Sequence record: NC_052654.1
Strand: one strand, 5' to 3'
Length of the DNA: 64,000 nucleotides
DNA from: Escherichia phage vB_EcoM-Ro121c4YLVW
Shown here in pieces: positions 4,163 through 18,706 of this stretch. Under the pieces are notes generated by a model, which saw nothing but the letters and a program-made list of their open reading frames with translations, was not told the origin of the DNA and made no database searches. Each line of letters begins with the position of its first letter. Position 1 is the stretch's first letter. Position numbers and translations under genes: made by a program.

Positions 4163-4174
4163 GAGGAGATTAGT

Positions 4175-4396: not shown

Positions 4397-4399
4397 GTG

Positions 4400-4428
4400 T
4401 TGACATAGTTCTTAAAAAGAGTAAGATA
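4400..4428 (+). promoter_or_regulatory. sigma70-like promoter candidate (TTGACA, 16-17 nt spacer, TAAGAT/AAGATA)
   Basis: TTGACA at 4400-4405 with a -10-like hexamer at the right spacing, in the intergenic gap upstream of the TerC gene. Confidence 0.45.
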
Positions 4429-4475
4429 TATCACATGAAGCGGGGAATAGTTCCCCGCAAAGAGAGGAGAAAAGA

Positions 4476-5447: not shown

Positions 5448-5453
5448 TAGATG

Positions 5454-5478
5454 AGCCTCCTTCGGGAGGCTATTTTAT
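5454..5478 (+). terminator. rho-independent terminator after the TerC gene
   Basis: Hairpin AGCCTCC-TTCG-GGAGGCT followed by ATTTTAT. Confidence 0.7.
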
Positions 5479-5489
5479 AGGAGAGACTT

Positions 5490-5840
5490 ATGAGTAATTT
5501 TGATGAAATTCAAAAACTTGTTTGGGATTTACCTGATGATGTTGATTACGTTTCAGATTATCTTTCAAAAGTTTACCCTGGGGTAAGCGTTATGATTGTG
5601 ACCAAAGATCCAATTAATTTGCCTCCTAATGTGGTAGCTTGTTGTGGGAGTGGTTCAGGGGAAGTGGAGCCTGTATCCCGTTGGGAATTAACTAAAGCTG
5701 TTTCAAAACGAAACGGTGAAGTTTTGAATATTGATATCGAGCAAATATGGACTTCTCCAGCAGCTAAATGGAATGATCCGAATGGTTGGGACTTGTTCTT
5801 CTGGGATAATGAAACTGATGATGAGGTATTTTTAAAATGA
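5490..5840 (+). CDS. hypothetical protein
   Basis: ORF with RBS AGGAGAG; no recognisable motif. Confidence 0.5.
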   Translation: MSNFDEIQKLVWDLPDDVDYVSDYLSKVYPGVSVMIVTKDPINLPPNVVACCGSGSGEVEPVSRWELTKAVSKRNGEVLNIDIEQIWTSPAAKWNDPNGWDLFFWDNETDDEVFLK

Positions 5841-6082
5841 AATACTTGTTGGTTGTGTTTGAAAATATTTGTTTTGCAATAGGGTTGTTTGTTGTAATTT
5901 TTGTATTGACAAGCGTAATCAACGGCAGTAAAGTGAGTTTATACCGAGATGGAGAGCAACTTTATTGCTTCTCTGGAGATTTCAAACACAGATGTATTAA
6001 TAGCCAAAACGAGGAAAGCAAATATGAAAAAACTAGCCCTGATTTTAATTGGTTGTATCTTTTTAACAGCTTGCGAGGATGA
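5837..6082 (+). CDS. hypothetical small membrane protein (doubtful)
   Basis: ATG overlaps the previous stop; N-terminal TM helix. It overlaps the better-supported lipoprotein gene by about 59 nt and contains a promoter-like site, so it may be spurious. Confidence 0.3.
   Translation: MKYLLVVFENICFAIGLFVVIFVLTSVINGSKVSLYRDGEQLYCFSGDFKHRCINSQNEESKYEKTSPDFNWLYLFNSLRG
5906..5934 (+). promoter_or_regulatory. possible sigma70-like promoter upstream of the lipoprotein gene
   Basis: TTGACA, 17 nt spacer, TAAAGT; located about 90 nt upstream of the ATG at 6024. Could be a chance match. Confidence 0.3.
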
Positions 6083-6461
6083 AACAAATCCTGCACAATA
6101 CCAACAACCTCCTCAACAATACGCTCAACAAGGATCTGACGGAGATACAACTATTATCAACAATGGTGGCGGTTCTAGTAGTAGCGGTGTTGGTGAGTTT
6201 GCTACAGGTATGTTGTTAGGGCATATGATGAGTGGCGGTAGTAATCGTAGCAGTGGGGATTATAACGATAACAGAACGATTATTAATAAGCATTATAATA
6301 CACCTAAACCGAAAACTAATTTTTATAGTAAGCCTAAACAAGAGATAAAAACTTATGAAAAGCCGAGACAAACTTTTAAAACAAATAGTAGCTATACAAC
6401 TCGTAAATCTTACAATAGCCCTTTAAGTAAAAAGAGTTCATCTCGTAGCAAGCGACGTTAA
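6024..6461 (+). CDS. predicted lipoprotein with low-complexity Gly/Ser-rich and basic C-terminal region
   Basis: MKKLALILIGCIFLTAC: basic N-terminus, hydrophobic core and lipobox L-T-A-C; RBS GAGGAAAG. The track ORF starts further upstream at 5949. Confidence 0.65.
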   Translation: MKKLALILIGCIFLTACEDETNPAQYQQPPQQYAQQGSDGDTTIINNGGGSSSSGVGEFATGMLLGHMMSGGSNRSSGDYNDNRTIINKHYNTPKPKTNFYSKPKQEIKTYEKPRQTFKTNSSYTTRKSYNSPLSKKSSSRSKRR

Positions 6462-6475
6462 TAAGGAGAAAAACA

Positions 6476-7069
6476 ATGACAATTTCTATTCGTACTTCCA
6501 TCGTAGGTGTTAAAAGGTTGCCTAATGCTTTGCAAATCACACGCGCTTTGAGGGATACATTCTCTGCTGTGGACGAGCATAAGATGCTTGATAATCTTTC
6601 AAATTGGCCCTATTTCCATTATTTTAAAAATGAAGATGACGAGTTTATAGACGCTGTTTCTTATGGTTATGATTTCGGTAAGGAGGTTTCTGCTGAAGAA
6701 TTTGTAGCTATGGTGTTCCCAAACGGTTTGCCTACTCGCAGTAAACGTAAAAAAGGACCAAAAAACAAGAAACGTGCTACTAATAAAGCTACCATTTTCT
6801 TTACTGATGGCACACAATATACGATTAAAGATTTTGAAGAGGTATCTTATACAGCAGGTGGGAATCTTTCTTTCTACACCATCAAAAAACAAAACTCTAC
6901 GTTCAGCCATGTTTCTAACATGATTGAAATGTTAGTAGAAGATATTGAAAGCGTAGCTGTGTTAGGTATGCATAAAAGCTTTTTAATTACAAATATTTCA
7001 GATTTCAGTGCACGTTTATCTGGTCCTGATTTTGAAACCACGACCACGCATTTCACTTTTAAGGTGTAA
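6476..7069 (+). CDS. hypothetical protein
   Basis: ORF with strong RBS TAAGGAGA; no recognisable motif. Confidence 0.55.
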   Translation: MTISIRTSIVGVKRLPNALQITRALRDTFSAVDEHKMLDNLSNWPYFHYFKNEDDEFIDAVSYGYDFGKEVSAEEFVAMVFPNGLPTRSKRKKGPKNKKRATNKATIFFTDGTQYTIKDFEEVSYTAGGNLSFYTIKKQNSTFSHVSNMIEMLVEDIESVAVLGMHKSFLITNISDFSARLSGPDFETTTTHFTFKV

Positions 7070-7072
7070 GTT

Positions 7073-7663
7073 ATGTATACCGAGAGAGACTTGCAACTCT
7101 TGTGGTGGGAAGTGATGCAGGAAATAAAAGAAGATTTTCCTGTTTACTACAACATGTTACGTGAAGCAGGATATAAAGCTTGTGTTAGAAACAAAGTGAA
7201 TAACTCTTTCGGTTGGTGCAACTACCGAGATAAAATTGTTGTTGTAAATTGGCACTTGCATAAGAACTCTACAAGAGATATGATCGTGGATACAATGAAG
7301 CACGAAATTGCTCATGCTATTGATGGTTGTATGGGTAAGTTTAGTAGACACGGTGCTCATTGGCAAAAACTGGCAGCAGAGTTAGGGGCTAATCCTAAAG
7401 CCACTTCCAAAGAGCCGTTGAACCACGAATATAAATATGTTCTTGTTCTGGTAGATAGGTTTGCGACAAGATGTGTTAGAGGTTATAATCGTAAACCTAA
7501 TCGCATGTACCCAGGTAAGCAACCTAATATGTGGTTGAAATCAGATAAAGAAGGGACCGAAGGAAAATTATGGTTGTATAAATGGGACGATTGGGTTAAA
7601 GTAGCTAAAGAGTACGGTGTTTCACCATATATAAGAGATGCAGAAGAGGAGAATGAAGAATGA
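7073..7663 (+). CDS. SprT-like zinc metallopeptidase domain protein
   Basis: HExxH motif in MIVDTMKHEIAHAIDGCMGKFSRHGAHW, as in SprT/Spartan-type proteins. Confidence 0.55.
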   Translation: MYTERDLQLLWWEVMQEIKEDFPVYYNMLREAGYKACVRNKVNNSFGWCNYRDKIVVVNWHLHKNSTRDMIVDTMKHEIAHAIDGCMGKFSRHGAHWQKLAAELGANPKATSKEPLNHEYKYVLVLVDRFATRCVRGYNRKPNRMYPGKQPNMWLKSDKEGTEGKLWLYKWDDWVKVAKEYGVSPYIRDAEEENEE

Positions 7664-8772
7664 CAAGTCCATTTTTAAAAGCAGCTACTGGCGGTCAGAA
7701 GAAGCCTGAAATGAGCGTATTTGCTGCAACAACAGATGCAAGTAAATCTGTATTCGCTCCAAGCGTGTTAGATGCCAGTCCTGTTTATGCACCAGCGGCA
7801 CCGCAAGAAGTTCCAGTTTTGCCTTCTATGACCCGACAAGAGATCGAAGAGATTGGGGCAGAGGCAGGAACAACCTTGCGTTCCTTGAATGCCGAGGTAT
7901 TAAAACATCAACGTAGTAATCAAGGCGATCAGATGAGTGAACGACTCACAGCTTTGATTAAACAGGCAAAACAACTTGATCCAAACTCTATTAAACAAAG
8001 CAAGGGTATTACTAAACTCATTAAAAAAGTTATGGGTATGAAAGAAGATCTGTTTGGGGAGTTTGATAATGTTAATAACCGTATTGAAGAGTTGGTAAAA
8101 AACCTTCAAATGGATATTCGCAAAGAAGAAGATTCCTTGGTATATCTTGAAAAGCTACATCAAGCTATTGGACAATATGCTGCAAGTTTGAACCGAGATA
8201 TGCAGCTTCTAACAGCAACCTATGAAAAAGAAGAACAAGCTTTGGCTGCTCTTCCAGAAGATGCAGTAGAACAGCGACAAGTGATCCGAGATACTTTGGA
8301 TCTTCTGGAGATTCGTATTGCAGATTTAAAAGCATTGCGCCTACTGTGTGTCCAAATGGGACCGCGTGTACAAGGTATGCAAAAAGTTTCTGCAAGCTTA
8401 ATGCGATCTGCGCGTAACATAGTAAATAATGTTATTCCTGCTTACTCTGCTAACTTCTCAATGTATATCGAGAGCTTACGTCAAATGAAAGCAGCAGAGA
8501 CGCAGAATAACGTTCTTGATGAATTTAACCTGGCAATTAAACTGGGTAGCGATCTTGCCACACAGAATCAGATAGAAGCAGCAGCACTGGCTAACCGTCA
8601 AGTGTTGGATATTGAAACTCTGCGTCACGATCAGGAAAACTTGGTTAAGATGTTGGAAGAAACTAACCGCATCAATACGGAAGCCCGTGCTGCTCGTGTT
8701 GATTATATTAATGAAGTTCAATCTTTGGAAGACGGGATGGTAGCTGCTGTGAAACGAGGGCTTGGTAAATGA
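7660..8772 (+). CDS. alpha-helical coiled-coil protein; possibly TelA-like (unverified)
   Basis: ATG overlaps the SprT stop (ATGA). 370 aa, Ala/Gln/Leu/Glu-rich helical sequence with a disordered N-terminus. TelA-like call rests only on size, composition and Ter-gene context. Confidence 0.6.
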   Translation: MTSPFLKAATGGQKKPEMSVFAATTDASKSVFAPSVLDASPVYAPAAPQEVPVLPSMTRQEIEEIGAEAGTTLRSLNAEVLKHQRSNQGDQMSERLTALIKQAKQLDPNSIKQSKGITKLIKKVMGMKEDLFGEFDNVNNRIEELVKNLQMDIRKEEDSLVYLEKLHQAIGQYAASLNRDMQLLTATYEKEEQALAALPEDAVEQRQVIRDTLDLLEIRIADLKALRLLCVQMGPRVQGMQKVSASLMRSARNIVNNVIPAYSANFSMYIESLRQMKAAETQNNVLDEFNLAIKLGSDLATQNQIEAAALANRQVLDIETLRHDQENLVKMLEETNRINTEARAARVDYINEVQSLEDGMVAAVKRGLGK

Positions 8773-8966
8773 GAATCCGTATCTATATAATTGATGAGGA
8801 CATTGGTGTCCGTTATGATGACGAAAAACGATTCGCACCAATGGGAGGCATATATCCCCCAAGTGTTCTAGCAGTTTGTCGTGATTGTTATATTTATGAA
8901 GGTTGTCGTAACTTCCGTAAATTCCAACTCCTTGCAGATATTGACTTCAATGAGGAGGAGGAGTAA
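8769..8966 (+). CDS. hypothetical small protein
   Basis: ATG overlaps the previous stop; acidic C-terminus (NEEEE). Confidence 0.35.
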   Translation: MRIRIYIIDEDIGVRYDDEKRFAPMGGIYPPSVLAVCRDCYIYEGCRNFRKFQLLADIDFNEEEE

Positions 8967-9139
8967 TGAAAATATTACGAGTGAATATTGAAACTGCTTG
9001 GTGTGGATGCAATGAGGTTGTGGATATCGAAATTGAAGATGATATGTCTCAAGAGGATATAGAAGATCTTGCCCACGAAACCTTTCAGGACTATTGTAAT
9101 TACGGGTTTCATATTTTAGAGGAGGAAGAAGATGTTTAA
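8966..9139 (+). CDS. hypothetical small acidic protein (57 aa, not in ORF track)
   Basis: ATG preceded by GAGGAGGAGGAG; hand translation MKILRVNIETAWCGCNEVVDIEIEDD...ILEEEEDV. Confidence 0.4.
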   Translation: MKILRVNIETAWCGCNEVVDIEIEDDMSQEDIEDLAHETFQDYCNYGFHILEEEEDV

Positions 9140-9335
9140 CTACGATAACGATCCTAATATTATCCAGTTAACCCGACAAGAACTGATCACAATCATTGAA
9201 GATGCTTTTATTGATGGTTGGAATACACAAGATAATGACTGGGGTGGACCCGAAGCTTTTCTGGAACATCATAAAGCTTATGGAGAATTTTGTGAAACCA
9301 CTGTAGCTCTTGATAATCTGAAGGAGGGTTTGTAA
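9132..9335 (+). CDS. hypothetical small protein
   Basis: ATG with GAGGAGG RBS. Confidence 0.45.
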   Translation: MFNYDNDPNIIQLTRQELITIIEDAFIDGWNTQDNDWGGPEAFLEHHKAYGEFCETTVALDNLKEGL

Positions 9336-9898
9336 TGGGTTGTTTTAGTTTTTTGTGCAAAGAATCGGGCAAAGCTGCCCTTTCTACTTCTTTCGACGGA
9401 TCACCTTGCTACCTCTTTCTTTTGAAAGACGGTGTTGTTATTGAAGAGATGTATGGCAACTATGATAGTTATGGTTGTGTTTTCTCTGGAAAAGAGGATG
9501 AAAATGGCGTTCGTGAACGGTTCGAATGGGCTATGGATTGGGGTAAGGTTTGTGATTTAATGCATTCCTCAAATCCAAGGGACGGTATTGCTATGGTGCT
9601 GGAAGAGTACTTTACAGGTGAAATCCCTACAGAACAATCTGACGGAGATCCTAATCAAGGTTGGGGTGATGGTGAAGAAGATCCAGATTGTTTTTTCAGC
9701 ACAGAAAAGAATAAGTTTAAACGTGTTGACAACCCTTATCACAAAGTGCATAATACTCTCATTGAAACAGAAGATGACAAGATGGAAATTGAAGAAGATG
9801 ATCCTCTTGTAACACTTCCTATAAGTGAGTTACAAAAGATCACTAAGGAAGCTTACGATTTGGGCTTCAAAATTGGTAGAGGAGGTATGCGTGTTTAG
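9335..9898 (+). CDS. hypothetical protein
   Basis: ATG with AAGGAGGG RBS; acidic, no recognisable motif. Confidence 0.55.
   Translation: MGCFSFLCKESGKAALSTSFDGSPCYLFLLKDGVVIEEMYGNYDSYGCVFSGKEDENGVRERFEWAMDWGKVCDLMHSSNPRDGIAMVLEEYFTGEIPTEQSDGDPNQGWGDGEEDPDCFFSTEKNKFKRVDNPYHKVHNTLIETEDDKMEIEEDDPLVTLPISELQKITKEAYDLGFKIGRGGMRV
9726..9754 (+). promoter_or_regulatory. sigma70-like promoter candidate (TTGACA, 17 nt, CATAAT)
   Basis: Located inside the 3' end of the preceding ORF, about 140 nt upstream of the small-protein/vWA gene pair. Confidence 0.4.
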
Positions 9899-10169
9899 AT
9901 TCAATATTCAAGAAGAAAAAAGTCAGGATTTACCTATTGCTTTCGAAGATCTTGACGTAGGGGCCACATTCATGTATTATGATGCCTATGAAGACGCAGG
10001 GTTGGATACCTACCGTAACTTGGTGTTCATTAAAAATTCCACAAACAGTGCGATTTGTATTAATGGATCACTAGCACAACGAGGCTATACTCATTGCATC
10101 CCACCAGATACAAATATGGTGGAAGTAGATTTAGAAGTTACCAATATTACACTTAAGAAGGAGAAATAA
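9891..10169 (+). CDS. small conserved protein, paralog A (pairs with 11191..11460)
   Basis: GTG start after GGAGG. Shares the pattern ...DLDVG(A/D)TF.Y...(F/Y)(E/D)(D/E)(A/N)GLD...LEV.LTVT.ITLKK with the ORF at 11191. Confidence 0.55.
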   Translation: MFRFNIQEEKSQDLPIAFEDLDVGATFMYYDAYEDAGLDTYRNLVFIKNSTNSAICINGSLAQRGYTHCIPPDTNMVEVDLEVTNITLKKEK

Positions 10170-10170
10170 T

Positions 10171-10965
10171 ATGTCCGAGAAAATCAGCCTGAAAAAACGT
10201 CAAGAAAACCTTGCTTTCTCTCTGAAAAAGAATAAGAACCTGAATGAAGGTAAGATTGTTCTTCGTGTAGCATGTGCTCTAGATATTTCTGGTAGTATGC
10301 ATGGTCTATATTCTAGTGGGGTAGTGAGTGATTTTGTAGGTAAACTGCTTCCTTTTGGTATGCTGTTCGACGATAATCAACAAATTGATATGTGGGCCTT
10401 CAATACGAGTTCCCAAGAGCTTACTCCAGCAACAGCAGACGTTTACGATGACTATGTTGGTAAATGTATGCGTAATGTTCGTATCGGAGGTGGAACAAAT
10501 TACGCCCCTGTAATGGCAGATATCTACGATGAGTATTTTGGCACTGTTACCAAATATATTACCACTAAACAAGTGGTACAAGAGGAGGCTCCAAAGAAAG
10601 GCTTCTTTAATCGTCTGCTTGGTAAAACTGAAACAGTGTCTGTAGAGCGTGAAAAAGTTGTAGCTGTATCTGAACCAGGTGCTGACGTTACCCCTGGTGT
10701 TGTATTCTTCCAGACGGATGGTGAGAATGGTGATCCTAGTGCTGTTCGTCGTCTTATTGAAGAGAATAAGAATAAACCTATTTATTGGTTCATGGTTGGC
10801 GTTGGTAATGAGAAGTTTGGCTTCCTGAAAGAACTGGCAAATGCTTATGATAATGTTGGTTTTATTGGCATTAAAGATTTAGACTTGACAGATTCAGAGC
10901 TTTATGACAAACTCTTATCTGAAGAGTTCGGAGAGTGGGTTGTTAAAGTAGGTGCTAAAAAATGA
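10171..10965 (+). CDS. vWA domain protein, TerF/TerY-like
   Basis: MIDAS motif DISGSM, then GGTNY and TDGENGD; N-terminus MSEKISLKK resembles the TerD-family N-terminal motif. Confidence 0.8.
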   Translation: MSEKISLKKRQENLAFSLKKNKNLNEGKIVLRVACALDISGSMHGLYSSGVVSDFVGKLLPFGMLFDDNQQIDMWAFNTSSQELTPATADVYDDYVGKCMRNVRIGGGTNYAPVMADIYDEYFGTVTKYITTKQVVQEEAPKKGFFNRLLGKTETVSVEREKVVAVSEPGADVTPGVVFFQTDGENGDPSAVRRLIEENKNKPIYWFMVGVGNEKFGFLKELANAYDNVGFIGIKDLDLTDSELYDKLLSEEFGEWVVKVGAKK

Positions 10966-11210
10966 TCGACGAGCTTGCCTCTCAAGTCGTAGAAAATTAT
11001 TGGCGCGAGAGAGAAGCTTTCATTATGCGCAGTCTCAAAGAGTATTTCATTGGGACTGTGCGAATGGAAGATATTGTAAGTAGAGTAGAGATTCATGTAT
11101 GGCCCGATTATGAAGAATGGGTTGACAAAGAAAATGAAAATGCTATAATTCTTCGTATATACAAACCGGAGATAACATTAGGAGGAAGAAGTGTTAAACT
11201 TCGAAATTGA
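10962..11210 (+). CDS. hypothetical small protein
   Basis: ATG overlaps the vWA stop; contains an internal promoter-like site. Confidence 0.4.
   Translation: MIDELASQVVENYWREREAFIMRSLKEYFIGTVRMEDIVSRVEIHVWPDYEEWVDKENENAIILRIYKPEITLGGRSVKLRN
11122..11149 (+). promoter_or_regulatory. sigma70-like promoter candidate (TTGACA, 16 nt, TATAAT)
   Basis: Consensus -35 and perfect -10 hexamer, upstream of the paralog B and TerD genes. Confidence 0.5.
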
Positions 11211-11460
11211 TGAGCAAAAAGTAAATAAACGATGCCTTACCATTAAAGATTTGGATGTAGGAGATACTTTCGTCTATGAAAATGCATTTGACGAAAATGG
11301 TTTAGACCTTAGTGAAATCATTGTTTATTTAAAAGTAGATGATGGGGAAAATGATTATTCTGCTGTAGAACTAAACCATCATGCACAATTAGTATCAATC
11401 CAAAACACATCTAAGCTTTTGGAAGTAGAATTGACTGTAACTGGTATTACACTTAAATAA
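11191..11460 (+). CDS. small conserved protein, paralog B (pairs with 9891..10169)
   Basis: GTG start after GGAGGAAG; sequence parallels paralog A. Confidence 0.55.
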   Translation: MLNFEIDEQKVNKRCLTIKDLDVGDTFVYENAFDENGLDLSEIIVYLKVDDGENDYSAVELNHHAQLVSIQNTSKLLEVELTVTGITLK

Positions 11461-11475
11461 TAGAGGAGACAAAAG

Positions 11476-12078
11476 ATGACTGATAAAATTTCCCTGAAAA
11501 AAGGCTCTAGCGAAAAAATTTCCCTGAAGAAAGTTGCTCCGGCTCTGAAAGAACTGCGCCTGGAATTCTCTTGGAAATCTGATTCTAAACTGGATCTGGA
11601 TGTAAGTGCACTGGTTTGTCGTCATAATGCCGCTGGCAATCCTGAAATGCTGTCCGCACGTCATCTGGTTTGCTATGCTAACAAGTTTGATCCTGAACGT
11701 TCTACCTTCGCTGGTGACGATGTTCGTGATGGGACTGGCAGCATGGAGCAGATTGATATTACTCTGGCTAAAATCTCTCCTGATGCACAAGAGATTGCCT
11801 TTGTTCTGACCATTGATGATGATACAGGTCTGAAACGTTTTGGTCATGCTTCTGAAGGTATGCTTAAAATCTTCGACTCCGAGCGTAATGTGGAAATTCT
11901 GGATTTTGACTTCCTGGCTCCTGAAGTAGCTGGCAACACAATCTGCCACGTGGCTTCCCTGGTTCGTGAAGATGGAGAATGGAAGCTGAAAGCATATGGT
12001 GTAGGTAAAGCTGGTCTGGATATTTGCGATGTGGTGATGGCCTTCGGTGGTAAAAAAGAATGGTATGAATGTCCATAA
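11476..12078 (+). CDS. terD: TerD-domain protein
   Basis: Matches recalled TerD signatures: N-terminal ISLKK repeats, DLDVSALVC, GDDVRDGTGSMEQIDITL, IAFVLTIDDD, DGEWKLKAYGVGKAGL. Codon usage is strongly E. coli-optimal (CTG, CGT, GGT). Confidence 0.9.
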   Translation: MTDKISLKKGSSEKISLKKVAPALKELRLEFSWKSDSKLDLDVSALVCRHNAAGNPEMLSARHLVCYANKFDPERSTFAGDDVRDGTGSMEQIDITLAKISPDAQEIAFVLTIDDDTGLKRFGHASEGMLKIFDSERNVEILDFDFLAPEVAGNTICHVASLVREDGEWKLKAYGVGKAGLDICDVVMAFGGKKEWYECP

Positions 12079-12096
12079 TAATTAACAAATGATTTT

Positions 12097-12116
12097 GAGG
12101 GGGAGAAATCCCCCTC
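12097..12116 (+). other. GC-rich stem-loop (GAGGGGGAGAAATCCCCCTC) without a clear U-tract
   Basis: Perfect inverted repeat between the TerD and endolysin genes. Confidence 0.5.
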
Positions 12117-12145
12117 TTGCAATAAAGCCTCTATCGTGTTATACT
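12117..12145 (+). promoter_or_regulatory. sigma70-like promoter candidate (TTGCAA, 17 nt, TATACT)
   Basis: Immediately downstream of the stem-loop and about 30 nt upstream of the endolysin RBS. Confidence 0.5.
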
Positions 12146-12177
12146 AGAAGTTCGTTAACTTAAAAAGGAGGCAAAAT

Positions 12178-12699
12178 TTGCTGATAAAAAACTTTGTAAC
12201 AGTTGCGTTACTATCCTTAACTGCTTTTACATTTACACCTGTTGTGGCGAAAGCCGAAGCTGCAAACGTAAAAACCGCTAAAGTAGTTCACAAATGTACA
12301 AAGCAATATAATGATAAAATTCTATTAGCTTGTGCAATTTACGCAGAAGGTCGCGGTCTGGGTAAAAAAGGAATGAATGCCGTTGGGAATGTGGTAATCA
12401 ACAGAAGAAATGATGCCTACTTCCCTAACACAGTCAAGGGAGTCTTGTTCCAGAAAGGGCAATTCTCATATGCGAAAACTTTTAACGTGACAGAGAAAGA
12501 TAAGTGGCAGGAAGCAAAAGCAATAGCGGAGCGTTTACTTTATTTAGAGAAACATTTTCCTGAATTGCGGTCTGTTTTAGATGTTACTAAAGGTGCTCTA
12601 TACTTCAAGAAACGGAATATAAGGACACACTGGGAGCGTGATATGCGTCTTGTTTATCGAGATAAAGTGCATGGTTTCTATCTACCAAAGGGGAGTTAA
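12178..12699 (+). CDS. cell-wall hydrolase (SleB/Hydrolase_2-like) with N-terminal signal peptide; candidate secreted endolysin
   Basis: TTG start after AAAGGAGG; signal peptide with AKA-EA cleavage-like site; CAIYAEGRGLG...GNVVINRR...FQKGQFSYAKTF resembles SleB-type hydrolases. Confidence 0.7.
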   Translation: MLIKNFVTVALLSLTAFTFTPVVAKAEAANVKTAKVVHKCTKQYNDKILLACAIYAEGRGLGKKGMNAVGNVVINRRNDAYFPNTVKGVLFQKGQFSYAKTFNVTEKDKWQEAKAIAERLLYLEKHFPELRSVLDVTKGALYFKKRNIRTHWERDMRLVYRDKVHGFYLPKGS

Positions 12700-12700
12700 A

Positions 12701-12985
12701 ATGCAAGAAGATAATACTGTTGTTGTAGCAAGTTACCTGGTTGTCGGTCTTACCGAAGAGGACGTATACTACACCCGTAAACATTTGGAAGCATACACTA
12801 CTTTGTTTATGGAAGATGAAAAAGATGTAGATAAATATAGCATTGATATGATCAACGACAGTATTTATCCTTGTATGGTTCTTAAAGTAGATGCTGTGCT
12901 GTGGGAGCGTTTTGCAAGGACTCATGATGCTGTAGAATGCTCCGCAGTAATGTCTCAAAACAACATTTTAGGGGAGATTCACTGA
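12701..12985 (+). CDS. hypothetical protein
   Basis: ATG at 12701 just after the endolysin stop; the track version starts at 12638. Confidence 0.45.
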   Translation: MQEDNTVVVASYLVVGLTEEDVYYTRKHLEAYTTLFMEDEKDVDKYSIDMINDSIYPCMVLKVDAVLWERFARTHDAVECSAVMSQNNILGEIH

Positions 12986-13215
12986 TGGGAGAAGTCATTG
13001 AAGTAAATTTTCGCACTAAACAAAAAGTGCAAAAATATGTTGTTATTAAAAACATTTGCGTTGTCTGCTTCAATACTGTAATATACGATTCACGACGCGG
13101 AGAAAACGAAAATGAACCTTACATTGAAATTTCTAAGAACAAAGGTCAATGTATTTGTAAGAACTGTGCAGTAGCTATTAAGGAGGTTGTAAATGAAAAC
13201 GCTTGGGACCAATGA
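12985..13215 (+). CDS. small zinc-ribbon-like protein
   Basis: CxxC...CxxC spacing (CVVCF...CICKNC); ATG overlaps the previous stop. Confidence 0.45.
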   Translation: MGEVIEVNFRTKQKVQKYVVIKNICVVCFNTVIYDSRRGENENEPYIEISKNKGQCICKNCAVAIKEVVNENAWDQ

Positions 13216-13384
13216 AACTGGCGAGATCTCTCTTCAAGAAGTGACAAACGACAAGCTGATTAAACTACGGGATGTAGCTCGTGACCATCTCCAAGAATCT
13301 TTTAAAGAATATATGGAAGCACGAGATCGTGTCATCCAAATCCAACAAGAAATGATTAAACGTGGGATTGTAGCTGACAGTTAA
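13193..13384 (+). CDS. hypothetical small protein
   Basis: ATG with GGAGG RBS. Confidence 0.4.
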   Translation: MKTLGTNETGEISLQEVTNDKLIKLRDVARDHLQESFKEYMEARDRVIQIQQEMIKRGIVADS

Positions 13385-13400
13385 TATAACGGAGGGGAGA

Positions 13401-13964
13401 ATGATTTATTATATTACTCCCTATCTGACAGGAAATATCGGCAAGGCTATCAATGAAGCTATTGCCGTTCTTCCAGATGATAGTTGGGTGTGCTTAAGAG
13501 ATACCGATACAATGTTCCTCCTGCCTGATCAACCATCTATGCTTGAAGAGCTTGTTATGTCAAACCCGCCTTTTGATGTAATAGGTGCAACTTGTAACAG
13601 GTTAGGTAGTGGTTATCAGCTTTTCTCTAACCAAATTAACGATGATCCAGATATTCTAAACCATATAGAATATGCTAAGATTGCAAGAGAATATCATAAA
13701 GTGAGTGTTGAAGAAGTTCCTTTCGGAACACCTCTGGCAGGTTTCTTTTTGCTTTTTAGAAAATCATTGTGGAATGAAATTCCTTTCGAAGAAAAATCTA
13801 TCCAATTCGACCTAATTTTCTCTCGCACTTTACATGAAAAAGGAAAGAGGTTAGGATTGATGCGGGGAATGTATCTGTTTCACATTTACAGATTAGGTCA
13901 AACAAATCCTCAACGGTCTATACATCATTTATTACACTGTCACGATCACAGTAAAACTATCTAG
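13401..13964 (+). CDS. putative GT-A fold glycosyltransferase
   Basis: N-terminal beta-strand YYITPY followed by D-x-D-like LRDTDTMF; weak. Confidence 0.45.
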   Translation: MIYYITPYLTGNIGKAINEAIAVLPDDSWVCLRDTDTMFLLPDQPSMLEELVMSNPPFDVIGATCNRLGSGYQLFSNQINDDPDILNHIEYAKIAREYHKVSVEEVPFGTPLAGFFLLFRKSLWNEIPFEEKSIQFDLIFSRTLHEKGKRLGLMRGMYLFHIYRLGQTNPQRSIHHLLHCHDHSKTI

Positions 13965-13972
13965 GAGAGAAA

Positions 13973-14656
13973 ATGGAAAATATTAAAATCGGAGTGGGTG
14001 TTATCACTGTAGGTGTCCGTCCACTTAAAGACTATCTTGTAACAGATCCACATGCAGATTTTCGAGTATTCAACGATCCAGATCGTAAAGGTGTAGCTTA
14101 CGCCAGGAATGAACTTATGCACCAGTTTTATGAAGAAGGTTATGATTATTGGTTTATTTTTGACGACGATTGCTACCCAATCATGGAGGGATGGGAAACA
14201 TATTTTGTAGATCAAGCTGTCTCTGGAAGATGGGATTTCTTTGGTATGCCGGAGTATTTCAAAGATAAAGTTGTTGGGAGTAAAGGAGAAGTTATTCTCT
14301 GGGAACTTGCAATGTGTCAATTTGCAATGTATTCTCGTGCCGTTGTTGAGAAGATGGGTTATTTCCGCCCTTACACTCACGGCTATGGTTTTGAAGATGC
14401 TGAATGGGTACACCGTTTGAAAGCTGCTGGTTTGAATCAGGGTATTCAGGCAATACCTTGTCCACTTCGTATCATGGCTTATATCCACCCAGACGATGTT
14501 TTTGGAAACAATCCTATGCCTTTTGCTAATCTGACAAAAGAAGAGAAAGAAGCTGCTATTGGCATTAACTGGGAAGAATATAAAGCGTCTTTAGAAGATA
14601 TTAAAAATGGGAAAATCCGAATTTCTTATGAGGAGGCACTGGCACATGTCAAATAA
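13973..14656 (+). CDS. glycosyltransferase, GT-A fold (family 2-like)
   Basis: DxD motif FIFDDDCYP and downstream GFEDAEW; RBS AGGAGAG. Confidence 0.65.
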   Translation: MENIKIGVGVITVGVRPLKDYLVTDPHADFRVFNDPDRKGVAYARNELMHQFYEEGYDYWFIFDDDCYPIMEGWETYFVDQAVSGRWDFFGMPEYFKDKVVGSKGEVILWELAMCQFAMYSRAVVEKMGYFRPYTHGYGFEDAEWVHRLKAAGLNQGIQAIPCPLRIMAYIHPDDVFGNNPMPFANLTKEEKEAAIGINWEEYKASLEDIKNGKIRISYEEALAHVK

Positions 14657-15593
14657 AAAATGGACTAAACTGAAAATTGATGCAAAACCTCACAGTGGTT
14701 GTGATTATCATCGTATTGTTATACCATTTAACAACAATAATTTTCAGCCTAAGAAAGATGTTGTCGTGTTTAACCGTATTCATTCTAAAGGTGCAGAATA
14801 CGTTTTATCTTTGAAACGTCAAGGTGTTAAGATTGTTGTAGATTTAGATGATTTCTACCAACTTAATCCAGAACATTATTTAGCAAGTCTATACGAGTCA
14901 AACACTCATGCTATTGTAGCTATGGTTAAGCTTGCTGATGTGGTTATTGTGACTACGGAATATTTAGCATATAAGATCCGTCACTTAAATAGGAATGTTG
15001 TTGTGATCCGAAATGCACTTCCTTTTGATAGCGGACAATTCACTTTGTCAAATGATCGTTCATCCGGTACCCCTGTTGTATGGGCTGGCGGTGCTAGTCA
15101 CGAACCAGACTTACGACTAGTCTCTAATACTTTCGATGATGAACTTCTTACTATTGCGGGATATGAAGCATCACAAAGCATCACGGGACAAGAGTGGATT
15201 AAGATTCGCAGAAATTTACCAAATGCCAAATATAAAGCCGCCGTAAAAGATTTAGATAATTACATGAGTGTTTACGAAAGTCATGCTATTGCTATAGCTC
15301 CTTTGGTAGATAATGATTTTAATAATTGTAAAAGTAATCTCAAAATCCTGGAAGCTGGAGCAAAAGGTATTCCGATTGTTTGTTCTAAGGTATTACCTTA
15401 TTTTAACCCTGTAGATGCTCGCGCTGTTGCTTACGCAGAGAATAAAGCAGAATGGCATTACGAAATTGTTAAGCTTCTTCGCAATCCAAACTATCGGGAA
15501 GATCGTGGCTTGTTCTTGGCTGAACATGTTCGAACACATTATAATCTGGCAGATGCAAACGAGTTGCGACGCCAGGTTATTGAAAGTTTGTAG
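14646..15593 (+). CDS. glycosyltransferase, GT-B fold (GT4-like), paralog 1
   Basis: C-terminal KSNLKILEAGAKGIPIVCS resembles the GT-B E-x7-E region; ATG 14646 follows AGGAGG; paralogous to the next gene. Confidence 0.65.
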   Translation: MSNKKWTKLKIDAKPHSGCDYHRIVIPFNNNNFQPKKDVVVFNRIHSKGAEYVLSLKRQGVKIVVDLDDFYQLNPEHYLASLYESNTHAIVAMVKLADVVIVTTEYLAYKIRHLNRNVVVIRNALPFDSGQFTLSNDRSSGTPVVWAGGASHEPDLRLVSNTFDDELLTIAGYEASQSITGQEWIKIRRNLPNAKYKAAVKDLDNYMSVYESHAIAIAPLVDNDFNNCKSNLKILEAGAKGIPIVCSKVLPYFNPVDARAVAYAENKAEWHYEIVKLLRNPNYREDRGLFLAEHVRTHYNLADANELRRQVIESL

Positions 15594-15600
15594 GTGAAGT

Positions 15601-16545
15601 ATGGGACAAATAATTCTTGACAATCGTAACGGAATCAATTATAGTGTCTGCGATTTCCATAGGGTAGTGCTGCCTTACTCAAGGCAGTTCTCTTCACAAC
15701 CTAAACACAACGTTTTCGTTTTTAACGGAGTGCCAACAAAAGGTAAAGAGGGCTTTTTAGCCCTTAAAAACCTGGGCTTTAAAATGGTTATGGATTTGGA
15801 TGACTCTTTAGTTATTCCAAAAGGACACATGTTAGAAGGTATTTTTGAATCAGGTATTCGTGAACATTTAAAATGGTTTTTAGAGCACAGTGATCTTGTT
15901 ACAACTACGACACCTGCCTTGCAAGTTGAACTTTCACAATACAATGATAATGTGCACATAATCCCTAATGGACTTCCTTATGATGAAGGTCAATTTGTGT
16001 TGACCCGTGATCGCTACTCCAAAACTCCATTAGTCTGGGCTGGAAGTGAAACACATAAACAAGATTTGGCTATCTTGCCCGATTTTGGTAAAGATCTTAC
16101 AATATGTGGTTTTCGTAGGGATTCTGAAGTTTTAAGTAGTCGTGAATGGTCTGTAATTAGAGAAAATGTAGCACCAACTAGTGTTTATGAAGGTGTAAGA
16201 CCATATGCCAACTACATGGAATCTTACGATGGTCATCAAATCAGTCTTGCACCATTGGTCGATAACGTGTTTAATAATGCAAAAAGCAATCTTAAAATTC
16301 TTGAGGCAGGTGCTAAGGGTTTACCTTTAATCTGCTCTCCTCGTGAGAATTATCATACGCAAGAGTTTAAAGATTTGTTATTCTTTGCTGAAACACTTTC
16401 CGAGTGGAAAGATATTACGGAATACTTATTAAGTGCTCCCGATGTTTGCATGGAGAAAGGATTAGCATTAGCTAAGTATGTCAGGACTCATTATCACATT
16501 GATGTGTTGAATGAGCGTCGTAGACTTTTATTTGAGGAGCTATAA
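15601..16545 (+). CDS. glycosyltransferase, GT-B fold (GT4-like), paralog 2
   Basis: KSNLKILEAGAKGLPLICS and overall co-linear similarity to 14646..15593. Confidence 0.65.
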   Translation: MGQIILDNRNGINYSVCDFHRVVLPYSRQFSSQPKHNVFVFNGVPTKGKEGFLALKNLGFKMVMDLDDSLVIPKGHMLEGIFESGIREHLKWFLEHSDLVTTTTPALQVELSQYNDNVHIIPNGLPYDEGQFVLTRDRYSKTPLVWAGSETHKQDLAILPDFGKDLTICGFRRDSEVLSSREWSVIRENVAPTSVYEGVRPYANYMESYDGHQISLAPLVDNVFNNAKSNLKILEAGAKGLPLICSPRENYHTQEFKDLLFFAETLSEWKDITEYLLSAPDVCMEKGLALAKYVRTHYHIDVLNERRRLLFEEL

Positions 16546-16823
16546 TGATTAACACTTTTGATTTTGAATACACCACTCGTAACGGGAAAGCCTTGGTTGT
16601 GGAGGTGGATTACTATTATGAAGAACCTAATCCACTTTCTCGTGAAAGCGATTGGGATTACCACGGAGGGCTTTTAATTGACGGTATTCGTTTTTATGAA
16701 GGATCTACAGAAGTTTTTGAAAAAGATTTAAATGTAACTGTAGCAGAAATTGCTTTCCAATTTAGAAAGCACATGGAAGAACTAGAAGCAGAATATATGA
16801 TGGAGACTAACGAACCATTTTAA
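16545..16823 (+). CDS. hypothetical protein
   Basis: ATG overlaps the previous stop; RBS GAGGAG. Confidence 0.45.
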   Translation: MINTFDFEYTTRNGKALVVEVDYYYEEPNPLSRESDWDYHGGLLIDGIRFYEGSTEVFEKDLNVTVAEIAFQFRKHMEELEAEYMMETNEPF

Positions 16824-16835
16824 CAGGAGAACAAA

Positions 16836-18614: not shown

Positions 18615-18634
18615 GGGCTTCGGCCCTTTTATTA
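18613..18634 (+). terminator. rho-independent terminator after the primase-helicase gene
   Basis: AAGGGC-TTCG-GCCCTT followed by TTATT. Confidence 0.75.
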
Positions 18635-18644
18635 AAAATACCTG

Positions 18645-18673: not shown

Positions 18674-18706
18674 TGTCTCATCAACCAAACAAGAGGAGAA
18701 GTAAAA

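What the first reader, a model, noticed from the sequence alone, without database searches (positions are those of the whole stretch)
11122..12078. TerD gene is codon-optimised like capsid and SSB genes and sits behind a consensus promoter
The TerD ORF uses almost exclusively CTG for Leu, CGT for Arg and GGT for Gly, contrasting with the AT-rich codon usage of neighbouring accessory genes and matching the bias of the major capsid and SSB genes. A TTGACA-16-TATAAT promoter lies about 330 nt upstream. This predicts very high TerD expression, or alternatively recent acquisition from an enterobacterial ter locus.
Basis: seen in the sequence. Interest (0 to 1): 0.5.

Follow-up and report, generated by a model that had tools for sequence, protein, structure and literature searches.

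The report
Capsid-level codon-optimised phage TerD gene
A phAPEC8-like E. coli phage carries a TerD stress-protein gene written in host-preferred codons as strongly as its capsid genes and placed behind the genome's only perfect host-type promoter, so it is probably made in very large amounts; it is an old phage gene, not a recent import from bacteria.

Summary
The window is a Phapecoctavirus (phAPEC8-like) E. coli myophage. The 200-aa ORF at 11476..12078 is a true TerD-family protein by Pfam and predicted fold. Its E. coli codon adaptation index is 0.551. That ranks 3rd of 75 window genes and 3rd of about 253 ORFs genome-wide, behind only the head-decoration and major capsid genes. CTG is 18/19 Leu and CGT 7/8 Arg, but GGT is only 9/15 Gly. 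TTGACA-16-TGcTATAAT at 11122..11149 is the only perfect sigma-70 consensus in the roughly 145-kb genome. It lies inside gp190 and drives a two-gene unit, gp191 then TerD, closed by a GC hairpin.

The high-expression reading is supported, though only indirectly. The bias, the private promoter and the downstream hairpin recur in orthologues from four other lineages (81-91% identity), and a weaker bias persists in a 53%-identical metagenomic relative.

The reading of recent enterobacterial acquisition is rejected. There is no nucleotide match in 5,426 E. coli genomes, enterobacterial TerD/TerE are only 30-31% identical, and GC3 is 0.36 against 0.54-0.58.

TerD belongs to a conserved phage Ter module (HAD, PRTase, macro, TerC, TelA, vWA-TerF-like). 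The gene is already annotated and phage Ter modules are already described. The codon and promoter ranking is an incremental addition.

The parts
11122..11149 (+). Sigma-70-type promoter TTGACA-16-TATAAT with TGn extended -10. It is embedded in the 3' end of the gp190 coding sequence, 42 nt upstream of the gp191 start codon.
   Evidence: It is the only 12/12 match in window 4000-20000, in the whole window and in the roughly 145-kb genome. Both hexamers, the spacing and the TGn are conserved in phiWec181 although the flanks are 18% diverged. It has the same TTGACA-16-TAnnnT architecture as the array of early promoters.
10962..11210 (+). gp190, an 82-aa protein of unknown function (PHROG 22387) whose 3' end carries the promoter. 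Present in Phapecoctavirus only.
   Evidence: It is absent from phi92, KP2025 and Tr1. CAI 0.165.
11191..11460 (+). gp191, an 89-aa protein with a GTG start and the first gene of the promoter-to-hairpin unit. It is a paralogue of gp188 (9891..10169), which precedes the vWA gene.
   Evidence: Both fall in PHROG 11278 and align together. CAI is 0.257 with 0/12 CTG, so the codon bias is specific to TerD and not to the transcript. The structure prediction failed, pLDDT 33.6.
11463..11468 (+). Shine-Dalgarno GAGGAG of TerD, 7 nt before the ATG.
   Evidence: The anti-SD duplex is -9.1 kcal/mol, rank 24 of 75. The -30..+30 fold is -2.9 kcal/mol, 5th least structured of 75.
11476..12078 (+). TerD-family protein gene, 200 aa, codon-optimised to capsid-gene level.
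   Evidence: Pfam PF02342 E = 3.2e-28. AF2 pLDDT 90.4. Foldseek top hits are TerD-family structures 9a6r_B, 3ibz and 2kxt.
12097..12116 (+). GC-rich hairpin GAGGGGGA-GAAA-TCCCCCTC, 18 nt after the TerD stop. Probably a terminator or 3' mRNA-stabilising stem, but it has no U tract in this phage.
   Evidence: Fold energy is -17.2 kcal/mol, z = -3.0 against shuffles. Equivalent hairpins, with T runs, follow TerD in phi92, KP2025 and Tr1.
10171..10965 (+). vWA-TerF-like protein (gp189), 264 aa. This is the domain that is fused to a TerD domain in bacterial TerF.
   Evidence: Pfam PF10138 E = 1.6e-37. CAI is 0.367 here and 0.41-0.60 in relatives.
9891..10169 (+). gp188, a small paralogue of gp191 placed directly upstream of the vWA gene.
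7660..8772 (+). TelA-family protein (gp183).
   Evidence: Pfam PF05816 E = 3.2e-33.
4476..5447 (+). TerC/Alx-family membrane protein (gp177). It has its own TTGACA-16-TAAGAT promoter at 4400..4427 and a terminator hairpin at 5454..5471.
   Evidence: Pfam PF03741. NCBIfam TIGR03718 scores 318.9 bits, above the 246.4 cut-off.
2199..4162 (+). HAD hydrolase (2199..2855), ComF-like PRTase_3 (2848..3675) and macro-domain protein (3689..4162). This is the putative nucleotide-metabolite arm of the Ter module.
   Evidence: The macro domain also matches the PADLOC DarG model.
57379..58800 (-). Major capsid protein (57379..58380) and head-decoration protein (58402..58800). These are the only two genes with higher CAI than TerD.
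24951..25838 (+). gp212, 295 aa, with an SSB-like acidic C-terminal tail (the likely 'SSB' comparator), CAI 0.490. It is the second gene behind the TTGACA promoter at about 24504.
18707..19138 (+). gp203, 143 aa, unknown function, CAI 0.513. It sits directly behind an 11/12 promoter at 18645..18673.

Best explanation
Region 11122..12116 is a short transcription unit read by the host sigma-70 RNA polymerase in a Phapecoctavirus. It runs from a perfect extended -10 promoter, through the small ORF gp191 and TerD, to a GC hairpin. TerD's codon usage is the product of long-standing translational selection for very high protein output from the host tRNA pool, the same pressure that shapes the capsid and decoration genes. 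TerD is therefore predicted to be one of the most abundant non-structural phage proteins, and judging by its promoter class it is made from early in infection.

Shown here:
- gene identity, fold, codon bias and genome-wide rank;
- promoter and hairpin sequences and their conservation;
- the antiquity of the gene in this phage lineage;
- membership of a phage Ter module (HAD, PRTase, macro, TerC/Alx, TelA, vWA-TerF-like, TerD).

Inferred:
- A need for capsid-like quantities implies a stoichiometric job rather than a catalytic one.
- The most likely job is ligand or metal binding beside its vWA partner (the two domains are fused in bacterial TerF), working with TelA and TerC at the inner membrane. 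This would keep envelope and ion homeostasis intact in the infected cell and exclude superinfecting phages or colicins, as the bacterial Ter system does.

Confidence is about 0.75 for the expression and selection part and about 0.3 for the specific physiological role.
For: Codon bias:
- CAI 0.551, rank 3 of 75 and 3 of about 253.
- z = 10.5 against resampled synonymous versions of the same protein.
- Highest PC1 in a reference-free RSCU PCA, and 2nd among non-reference genes with capsid plus decoration as the reference.
- The bias is codon-specific. CTG, CGT, GGT/GGC, GCT and TCT/TCC are favoured while GC3 stays at 0.36.
- gp191, which lies on the same predicted transcription unit, shows none of it.

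Orthologues:
- They keep the bias: phiWec181 0.577, KP2025 0.583, phi92 0.520, Tr1 0.617, each the local maximum.
- The 53%-identical metagenomic L007 is 0.416, the highest of 27 genes.
- 39-46% of identical-residue codons differ between lineages, yet Leu stays CTG.
- TerD is the most conserved protein of its neighbourhood, at 81-91% identity against 67-76% for vWA and endolysin.

Promoter and hairpin:
- It is the only perfect consensus in the genome and is conserved in phiWec181.
- phi92, KP2025 and Tr1 lack gp190 and gp191 but have TTGAC(T/A)-16-TA(A/G)AAT in the vWA-TerD spacer, with conserved hexamer blocks and a variable spacer.
- GC hairpins follow TerD in all of them.
- The architecture matches about 16 early promoters of the phage.

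Supporting context:
- The TerD initiation region is weakly structured.
- TerD avoids AGA, GGA, CAA, ACA and CCA, the codons read by the phage's own tRNAs.
- In the enterobacterial ter operon, terB, terD and terE also have the highest CAI (0.48-0.49 against 0.29-0.36), and TerD and TerE appear as multiple 2D-gel spots (PMC3823874).
- terD genes were among the highly transcribed regions of unrelated gut huge phages (PMC12363816).
- Phage genes for abundant structural proteins are known to prefer host-preferred codons (PMC2266997, title and abstract listed).
- The superinfection-exclusion rationale is from Iyer et al. 2021 (PMC7824862) and PMC6141743.
Against: - There is no direct measurement of RNA or protein for any Stephanstirmvirinae phage.
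- The perfect promoter alone is not statistically significant, and it lies inside a coding sequence.
- The window's hairpin has no U tract, so termination is not assured.
- The Shine-Dalgarno strength is only average for this phage, rank 24 of 75.
- Two-fold codon families (GAT 16/19, ATT 8/11, TAT 3/3) are not host-optimal, so optimisation is partial.
The reference-free analyses agree with it.
- The functional role is inference. PADLOC has no model that matches TerD, vWA, TelA or TerC. The canonical acidic Ca2+ loop is shortened in the phage clade.
Confidence: 0.72

Rival explanations
1. Recent horizontal acquisition. On this view TerD looks host-like in codon usage because it was recently copied from an enterobacterial ter locus and has not yet drifted toward the phage's AT-rich usage.
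For: TerD has the highest GC of its neighbourhood, 0.446 against a median of 0.386. ter operons are common on enterobacterial plasmids, with 2,317 plasmid records matching at protein level.
Against: - No blastn (word 11) match in 5,426 complete E. coli genomes.
- The best enterobacterial proteins are 30-31% identical.
- Enterobacterial terD and terE have GC3 0.54-0.58 and a lower CAI (0.48) than the phage gene (GC3 0.36, CAI 0.55).
- TerD is present at 81-100% identity in all genera of the subfamily.
- At 53% identity it keeps the same synteny, TerC..TelA..vWA..small ORF..TerD..endolysin..primase, in a distant metagenomic phage.
- The nearest database relatives all lie on roughly 150-kb phage-sized contigs.
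- The phage clade has its own diagnostic loop, GDDVRDGTGxxE, rather than GDNxTGEGDGDDE.
Confidence: 0.02
2. Timing rather than amount. On this view TerD is tuned to host tRNAs because it must be translated immediately after infection, before the ten phage tRNAs accumulate. It would not need to be especially abundant.
For: - The promoter is of the early class.
- TerD avoids the A-ending codons read by the phage tRNAs Arg-TCT, Gly-TCC, Gln-TTG, Thr-TGT and Pro-TGG.
- Several small early-region ORFs have above-average CAI of 0.39-0.44.
Against: - The late capsid and decoration genes show the same bias, or a stronger one.
- gp191, on the same predicted transcription unit, has CAI 0.257.
- No other ORF in the early region exceeds 0.44, whereas TerD is 0.55.
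- The other strongly biased non-structural genes, gp212 (SSB-like) and gp203, are of the kind needed in bulk.
Confidence: 0.15
3. The promoter match is fortuitous, and TerD is transcribed by read-through from upstream promoters of the + strand block.
For: - One perfect match per 64 kb is expected 0.17 times by chance.
- The site is inside the gp190 ORF.
- Genes 9132..12078 are tightly packed with no terminator detected between them.
Against: - Both hexamers, the 16-nt spacing and the TGn are preserved in phiWec181 while surrounding codons diverge.
- Lineages that lack gp190 and gp191 have an equivalent promoter in the vWA-TerD spacer, with conserved -35 and -10 blocks.
- The architecture is identical to the phage's early promoter array.
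Confidence: 0.08
4. TerD is a virion or packaged protein, which would explain capsid-like codon usage.
For: Its CAI equals that of the structural genes.
Against: - It lies in the + strand replication and accessory block, about 14 kb from the start of the structural block (25902 onward), which lies on the opposite strand.
- It sits behind a host-type early promoter.
- The phi92 GenBank note for gp172 says only 'putative stress protein'.
- The 2026 phi92 whole-virion structure paper mentions neither gp172 nor TerD.
Confidence: 0.03

Closest known systems
Bacterial TerD/TerE of the terZABCDEF tellurite-resistance operon (for example Klebsiella pneumoniae TerD, PDB 2KXT)
   Same: They share the same Pfam domain over nearly the full length and the same beta-sandwich fold. 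The DLDxSA motif is conserved. Both are linked to TerC and to a vWA/TerF-type protein. The TerD-type genes are also the most codon-adapted members of the bacterial operon and are abundant on 2D gels.
   Different: Protein identity is only 30-31% and there is no nucleotide similarity. The acidic loop GDNRTGEGDGDDE is replaced by the shorter GDDVR-DGTGSMEQ throughout the phage clade. There is an extra N-terminal repeat, ISLKKGSSEKISLKK. The phage has one TerD copy rather than several paralogues, and it is expressed from its own promoter rather than as part of a long operon.
[quoted passage not shown]
   Same: The component set is the same: PRTase, HAD, TerD, TerC, TelA and a TerF-type vWA protein. 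The proposed role is also the same, namely superinfection exclusion or xenobiotic tolerance.
   Different: That work catalogues gene content and does not address expression level, codon bias or promoter structure. Here the module sits in a 145-150 kb myophage and is interrupted by unrelated small genes, and TerC and TerD are each autonomous promoter-terminator units.
phi92 gp172 and phAPEC8-group 'putative stress protein / TerD family protein' annotations
   Same: These are the same gene. It is 100% identical in more than 60 public phage records and 81% identical in phi92. It is variously annotated as a tellurium resistance protein, general stress protein 16U or TerD family protein. It is listed in PMC4690881, and PMC6141743 reports four tellurite-resistance-related genes in ZCKP1.
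   Different: The literature I could search contains no analysis of its codon adaptation or transcription unit.
Bacillus subtilis YceC/YceD (SCP2 / general stress protein 16U) of the yceCDEFGH envelope-stress operon
   Same: PDB 9a6r_B, described in the entry only as 'SCP2', is the best structural match, with TM 0.83 and rmsd 1.9 A. That SCP2 is B. subtilis YceC, and that the yce operon encodes TerD paralogues with a TerC-family (YceF) and a TelA-family (YceH) protein and responds to stress, is from my own knowledge.
   Different: Sequence identity is 23%. It is a cellular gene under stress sigma factors, not a phage early gene.
terD genes of gut 'Jug' huge phages (PMC12363816)
   Same: These are phage-borne TerD genes transcribed as small independent operons with high RNA read depth. 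This is precedent for high TerD expression in phages.
   Different: They belong to an unrelated phage clade with Bacteroides-type hosts. There are three copies per genome, and those authors suggest host-phage HGT, which is not the case here.

Membership tests
TerD family (Pfam PF02342) | Sequence match to the TerD domain model above the curated threshold | tested here: met
   98.9 bits against a cut-off of 25.3, E = 3.2e-28, covering profile positions 3-177 of 187. phmmer against PDB gives 2kxt at 1.5e-15 and 3ibz at 2.9e-14.
TerD family (Pfam PF02342) | TerD beta-sandwich fold | tested here: met
   The AF2 model has pLDDT 90.4 and pTM 0.89. The top six Foldseek PDB hits are all TerD-family structures, with TM 0.63-0.83. 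This is a predicted structure, not a solved one.
TerD family (Pfam PF02342) | Ca2+-binding residues: the DLD motif plus the acidic loop GDN(R/L)TG(E/A)GDGDDE. The motif is recalled from the K. pneumoniae TerD NMR study and was not verified here. | tested here: inconclusive
   DLDxSA is conserved. The acidic loop is one residue shorter and reads GDDVR-DGTG(S/Q)(M/L)E in every member of the phage clade down to 45% identity, so three acidic positions are lost. Metal binding cannot be decided from sequence.
Ter stress-response module (Anantharaman/Iyer/Aravind sense) | Genomic association of TerD with TerC, TelA, a TerF/TerY-type vWA protein and PRTase/HAD enzymes | tested here: met
   HAD, PRTase_3, TerC, TelA, vWA-TerF-like and TerD all lie within window 2199..12078. 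The same order occurs in the distant relative L007.
Ter stress-response module (Anantharaman/Iyer/Aravind sense) | Confers tellurite, colicin or phage resistance | not testable with these tools
   This needs genetics. None has been reported for these phages.
Recently transferred enterobacterial ter gene | Detectable nucleotide similarity, high protein identity and donor-like composition | tested here: not met
   No blastn hit in 5,426 E. coli genomes. Protein identity is at most 31%. GC3 is 0.36 against 0.54-0.58.
Highly expressed gene class defined by codon adaptation | CAI or RSCU profile in the top tail of the genome, alongside known abundant proteins | tested here: met
   Rank 3 of about 253, z = +3.8. 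It is extreme on PC1 and z = 10.5 against resampling.
Highly expressed gene class defined by codon adaptation | Measured high mRNA or protein abundance | not testable with these tools
   No expression data set was found.
Sigma-70 (host RNAP) phage early promoter | -35 and -10 hexamers at 16-18 nt spacing, conserved among relatives | tested here: met
   12/12 with TGn. It is conserved in phiWec181. Analogous conserved promoters occur in phi92, KP2025 and Tr1, and the architecture matches the early array.
Sigma-70 (host RNAP) phage early promoter | Mapped transcription start and dependence on host RNAP | not testable with these tools
   Requires 5'-end mapping or in vitro transcription.
Intrinsic (Rho-independent) terminator | GC-rich hairpin immediately followed by a U tract | tested here: not met
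   The hairpin is present, at -17.2 kcal/mol with z = -3.0. It is followed by TTGCAATAAA, so the scanner did not call it. The phi92 and KP2025 equivalents do have T runs. In this phage it may act mainly as a weak terminator or as a 3' stabiliser.

The most novel reading that the evidence does not exclude
TerD may be needed in capsid-like stoichiometric amounts because it is a bulk effector rather than a sensor. It could be a cytoplasmic divalent-cation or ligand buffer. Alternatively, together with its split-TerF partner (the vWA protein), TelA and TerC, it could be a sub-membrane coat that seals the infected cell against superinfecting phages, colicins or host membrane- or Ca2+-triggered abortive-infection systems. 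The phage-clade-specific remodelling of the acidic loop would then indicate a ligand different from that of bacterial TerD. If this is right, this easily grown coliphage would give a tractable, single-copy, high-expression model for the unresolved biochemical function of Ter proteins.
Probability: 0.2. Interest if true: 0.6.

Novelty: already known. Interest (0 to 1): 0.3.

Why it matters
The biochemical role of Ter proteins is still called elusive after decades of work (PMC3823874). I show here that a lytic coliphage lineage has kept a single TerD gene under capsid-grade translational selection, with its own strong promoter, across several genera. That argues TerD is required in bulk and matters for phage fitness, and it points to a stoichiometric mechanism. 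It also gives a clean experimental handle: one gene, one promoter and an easily grown E. coli phage. For phage-therapy genomics, where phAPEC8-like phages are frequent candidates, it clarifies that the 'tellurite resistance' genes are ancient phage genes and not recently captured bacterial resistance cargo. As a discovery it is incremental, because the gene and the phage Ter module are already annotated and discussed.

Tried and rejected
- Literature search for TerD, tellurite, transcriptome or proteome data on Phapecoctavirus, phAPEC8 and phi92. I found only annotation-level mentions.
- The phi92 genome and virion-proteome paper (PMC3457257, doi 10.1128/JVI.00801-12) is not held, so virion mass-spectrometry data could not be checked.
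- PADLOC models. None matches TerD, vWA, TelA, TerC, PRTase or gp191. NCBIfam also has no model that matches TerD.
- Rfam on window 1..27000. I looked in particular for a yybP-ykoY-type riboswitch ahead of TerC or a structured leader ahead of TerD, and found nothing.
- gp191. The homologue search returned only near-identical proteins, and the AF2 model from a 3-sequence alignment was unusable, pLDDT 33.6. Its function stays unknown.
- Shine-Dalgarno strength as an extra expression signal. TerD is only average for this phage, so I do not use it as support.
- The minus-strand ORF 11395..11949 (184 aa) overlapping TerD is not annotated in any relative. I treat it as a shadow ORF of a codon-biased gene.
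- Regional GC or mutational bias as the cause of the signal. I reject it because the bias is confined to one gene of the transcript and to particular codons while GC3 stays low.
Full report
IDENTITY OF THE WINDOW. Megablast of 10100-12800 finds 130 phage records. The best, Escherichia phage nieznany (Phapecoctavirus, Stephanstirmvirinae), is 99.8% identical. The whole window aligns to nieznany 75405-139404 at 97-99%, with a few indels. I transferred nieznany's CDS annotation to the window by tblastn and obtained 75 complete genes.

CHECK OF THE OBSERVATION: THE GENE. The ORF at 11476..12078 (+, 200 aa) matches Pfam TerD (PF02342, E = 3.2e-28) over almost the whole model. An AlphaFold2 model has pLDDT 90.4. 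Its best PDB matches are all TerD-family structures: 9a6r_B (TM 0.83), 3ibz and 2kxt.

CHECK OF THE OBSERVATION: THE PROMOTER. TTGACA-16-TATAAT with a TGn extended -10 lies at 11122..11149, 327 nt before the TerD ATG. The promoter sits inside the 3' end of the gp190 coding sequence (10962..11210). A further gene, gp191 (11191..11460, GTG start), lies between it and TerD.

CHECK OF THE OBSERVATION: CODON USAGE.
- TerD uses CTG for 18 of 19 Leu and CGT for 7 of 8 Arg. It uses GGT for only 9 of 15 Gly, plus 4 GGC. 'Almost exclusively' is therefore right for Leu and Arg and overstated for Gly.
- E. coli CAI is 0.551 against a window median of 0.259. Only the head-decoration gene (0.583) and the major capsid gene (0.559) are higher.
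- I added the rest of the genome from nieznany with an automatic ORF caller. On the window, that caller recovers 70 of the 75 mapped genes.
- Across those roughly 253 ORFs TerD is still third, z = +3.8, and it has the highest CTG fraction of any gene with at least 8 Leu.
- Genome-wide, CTG accounts for only 13% of Leu codons.
- Resampling synonymous codons for the TerD protein from pooled genome usage gives CAI 0.284 +/- 0.025, with a maximum of 0.412 in 20,000 draws. The observed value is 10.5 sd higher.
- The result does not depend on the E. coli table. With capsid plus decoration as an internal reference, TerD ranks second among the remaining genes. In a reference-free PCA of RSCU it has the highest PC1 score, and PC1 correlates with CAI at r = 0.70.
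- Neighbours are unbiased: gp190 0.165, gp191 0.257, endolysin 0.229. Only the vWA gene is mildly raised, at 0.367.
- The other strongly biased non-structural genes are gp203 (0.513, unknown function) and gp212 (0.490).

IS THE PROMOTER REAL? One perfect consensus in 64 kb is not significant by itself. The expectation is 0.17, and 17 of 100 shuffles have at least one. It is, however, the only 12/12 site in the whole roughly 145-kb genome on either strand, and it is conserved.
- In phiWec181 (TerD 91% identical) the -35, the 16-nt spacing, the TGn and the -10 are all intact, while the surrounding coding sequence is 18% diverged.
- phi92 (Justusliebigvirus), Klebsiella phage KP2025 and Citrobacter phage Tr1 lack gp190 and gp191 altogether. 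They carry TTGAC(T/A)-16-TA(A/G)AAT in the 75-95 nt vWA-TerD spacer instead.
- An alignment of those spacers shows conserved CTTGAC and AGTA(G/A)AATA blocks separated by variable sequence.
- The architecture, TTGACA with a 16-nt spacer and TAnnnT, is that of about 16 regularly spaced promoters in the phage's early small-gene region. I therefore read it as a host-RNAP early-class promoter.

DOWNSTREAM HAIRPIN AND INITIATION REGION. A GAGGGGGA-GAAA-TCCCCCTC hairpin at 12097..12116 follows TerD. It folds at -17.2 kcal/mol, z = -3.0. It lacks a U tract here, but the equivalent hairpins in phi92 and KP2025 have one. The TerD initiation region is the 5th least structured of 75. Its Shine-Dalgarno is only average for this phage. 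No Rfam family matches in 1..27000.

SELECTION OR RECENT TRANSFER? All tests go against recent transfer from an enterobacterial ter locus.
- blastn with word size 11 finds no match to the TerD gene in 5,426 complete E. coli genomes.
- tblastn against 72,556 plasmids finds 2,317 records, all below 60% identity. The typical IncHI2-type TerD/TerE are at 31%.
- On one such Klebsiella plasmid, terD and terE are 30-31% identical to the phage protein. Their GC3 is 0.54-0.58 and their CAI is 0.48, lower than the phage gene's.
- The phage gene has GC3 of only 0.36. It favours CTG, CGT, GGT/GGC, GCT and TCT/TCC while keeping AT-ending codons in two-fold families such as GAT, ATT and TAT. That is the signature of translational selection acting on an AT-rich genome, not of imported DNA.
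- TerD is present in every branch of the subfamily: 100% in 63 records, 91% in phiWec181, 86% in Klebsiella phages, and 81% in phi92 and Tr1.
- In the 5.8-billion-protein collection its nearest relatives sit on roughly 150-kb phage-sized contigs.
- A 53%-identical homologue lies on a 54-kb metagenomic contig with the same gene order: TerC, TelA, vWA-TerF-like, small ORF, TerD, endolysin, primase-helicase, DNA polymerase.

THE BIAS IS MAINTAINED ACROSS LINEAGES.
- Orthologue CAI values are 0.577, 0.583, 0.520 and 0.617, each the local maximum. The distant L007 copy is 0.416, the highest of 27 genes.
- Between lineages, 39-46% of codons at identical residues differ, yet Leu positions stay CTG.
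- TerD is also the slowest-evolving protein of its neighbourhood, at 81-91% identity against 67-76% for vWA and endolysin and 44-61% for gp190 and gp191. That is typical of highly expressed genes.

CONTEXT. TerD is the last member of a dispersed phage Ter module:
- HAD hydrolase, 2199..2855;
- ComF-like PRTase_3, 2848..3675;
- macro-domain protein, 3689..4162;
- TerC/Alx, 4476..5447, with its own TTGACA-16-TAAGAT promoter and terminator;
- SprT-like protein, 7073..7663;
- TelA, 7660..8772;
- vWA-TerF-like protein, 10171..10965.

The vWA domain is the one fused to a TerD domain in bacterial TerF, so the phage vWA and TerD genes look like a split TerF. gp188 (before vWA) and gp191 (before TerD) are paralogous small proteins. 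The function of gp191 could not be resolved.

The phage encodes ten tRNAs, including Arg-TCT, Gly-TCC, Gln-TTG, Thr-TGT and Pro-TGG. TerD largely avoids the codons these tRNAs read.

The phage TerD clade has a diagnostic change in the acidic loop that is canonical in bacterial TerD. GDNRTGEGDGDDE becomes GDDVR-DGTG(S/Q)(M/L)E, while the DLDxSA motif is kept. Ca2+ binding is therefore uncertain.

MECHANISM.
- Shown: the anatomy of the unit (promoter, gp191, TerD, hairpin), the capsid-grade codon adaptation, and their evolutionary maintenance.
- Inferred: TerD is produced in very large amounts from early in infection by host RNA polymerase and host tRNAs. Such amounts imply a stoichiometric role.
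- Following the Ter-system model summarised by Iyer et al. 2021 (PMC7824862) and the suggestion made for phage ZCKP1 (PMC6141743), the most likely role is a ligand- or metal-binding component. It would act with vWA, TelA and TerC at the membrane to preserve envelope and ion homeostasis and to exclude superinfecting phages or colicins.
- Supporting analogies: TerD-type genes are also the most codon-adapted of the bacterial operon. TerD and TerE appear as multiple 2D-gel spots (PMC3823874). terD operons are highly transcribed in unrelated gut huge phages (PMC12363816).
- No PADLOC defence model matches these proteins, and no experiment exists for this phage group.

RIVALS.
- 'Early timing, not abundance' is partly compatible. 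It is weakened because late capsid genes share the bias, gp191 on the same predicted transcription unit lacks it, and other early-region ORFs reach at most 0.44.
- 'Fortuitous promoter' is weakened by conservation.
- 'Virion protein' is unlikely given the gene's location, its promoter class and its absence from the phi92 structural literature available to me.
- 'Recent HGT' is rejected, as set out above.

NOVELTY AND VERDICT. The gene is 100% identical to genes already deposited in more than 60 phage genomes, where it is variously labelled hypothetical, TerD family, tellurium resistance or general stress protein. Phage Ter modules have also been described. What is new is quantitative. TerD is the third most codon-adapted gene of the genome and owns its only perfect sigma-70 promoter, and both features are conserved across genera. 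That is a useful lead about dosage and mechanism, but it is not a new kind of system.

The high-expression interpretation is supported as a prediction. The HGT alternative is rejected. Interest is modest.

Noticed in passing
window 3689..4162 (+): gp175 is a macro-domain protein (Pfam PF01661) whose best PADLOC match is the N-terminal macrodomain of the DarG antitoxin (E = 2.4e-10). It could be a phage counter-defence against DarT DNA ADP-ribosylation, or part of the Ter nucleotide-metabolite arm, since it directly follows the PRTase and HAD genes.
   Followed up: no
window 9891..10169 and 11191..11460 (+): gp188 and gp191 are paralogous proteins of about 90 aa (PHROG 11278). One sits immediately upstream of the vWA-TerF-like gene and the other immediately upstream of TerD. 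phi92, KP2025 and Tr1 have no small gene between vWA and TerD; phi92 has a copy upstream of vWA, and the distant L007 has one upstream of TerD. Function is unknown, and the AF2 model was unusable.
   Followed up: partly
window 10171..12078 (+): The vWA-TerF-like protein and TerD are separate adjacent genes. In bacterial TerF the two domains are fused, with the TerD domain N-terminal and the vWA domain C-terminal, so the phage pair looks like a split, order-swapped TerF. In some relatives the vWA gene is also strongly codon-optimised (Tr1 0.595, phiWec181 0.507).
   Followed up: partly
window 4400..5471 (+): TerC/Alx (4476..5447) is also an autonomous unit, with a TTGACA-16-TAAGAT promoter at 4400..4427 and a good intrinsic terminator at 5454..5471 (AGCCTCC-TTCG-GGAGGCT followed by ATTTTAT). 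No yybP-ykoY-type riboswitch precedes it.
   Followed up: partly
L009 10000..17000 (nieznany 50-57 kb), minus strand: There is an array of about 16 evenly spaced TTGACA-16-TAA(A/G/T)(C/A)T promoters. Each lies in an 80-100 nt spacer ahead of a small ORF, and many are accompanied by GC-rich hairpins. This is a classic early-gene 'promoter ladder'.
   Followed up: no
window 18645..19138 (+) and 24504..25838 (+): Two further non-structural genes combine a private TTGACA promoter with high codon adaptation. gp203 (143 aa, no family hit beyond PHROG 9938, CAI 0.513) follows a terminator and an 11/12 promoter. gp212 (CAI 0.490, SSB-like C-terminal tail) is the second gene behind a TTGACA-18-TGaTAGGAT promoter, after the low-CAI gp211. 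That is the same layout as gp191-TerD.
   Followed up: partly
window 19942..23514 (+): The DNA polymerase gene is 1,110 aa here against 1,189 aa in nieznany, and the tblastn HSP is only 73% identical. The HNH endonuclease gene that follows it in nieznany (gp206) is absent from the window. This suggests intein or homing-endonuclease polymorphism.
   Followed up: no
public records hit by window 10100..12800: Near-identical genomes (99-100% in this region) are deposited as 'Campylobacter phage B15/A150/C3', 'Acinetobacter phage vB_AbaM_ABPW7' and 'Klebsiella phage ZCKP1'. Such host labels for a coliphage genus look like contamination or mis-assignment, or else an unusually broad host range.
   Followed up: no
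L004 2440..2480 (Klebsiella phage KP2025): KP2025 has a 20-nt perfect hairpin, GGGGAGAG-ATGG-CTCTCCCC, inserted in the TerD 5' UTR between the promoter and the RBS. It is absent from phi92 and Tr1. It may be a 5' mRNA stabiliser or a regulatory element.
   Followed up: no
window 11395..11949 (-): A 184-aa antisense ORF overlaps TerD. It is not annotated in any relative, and I take it to be a shadow ORF produced by the strong codon bias of TerD.
   Followed up: partly
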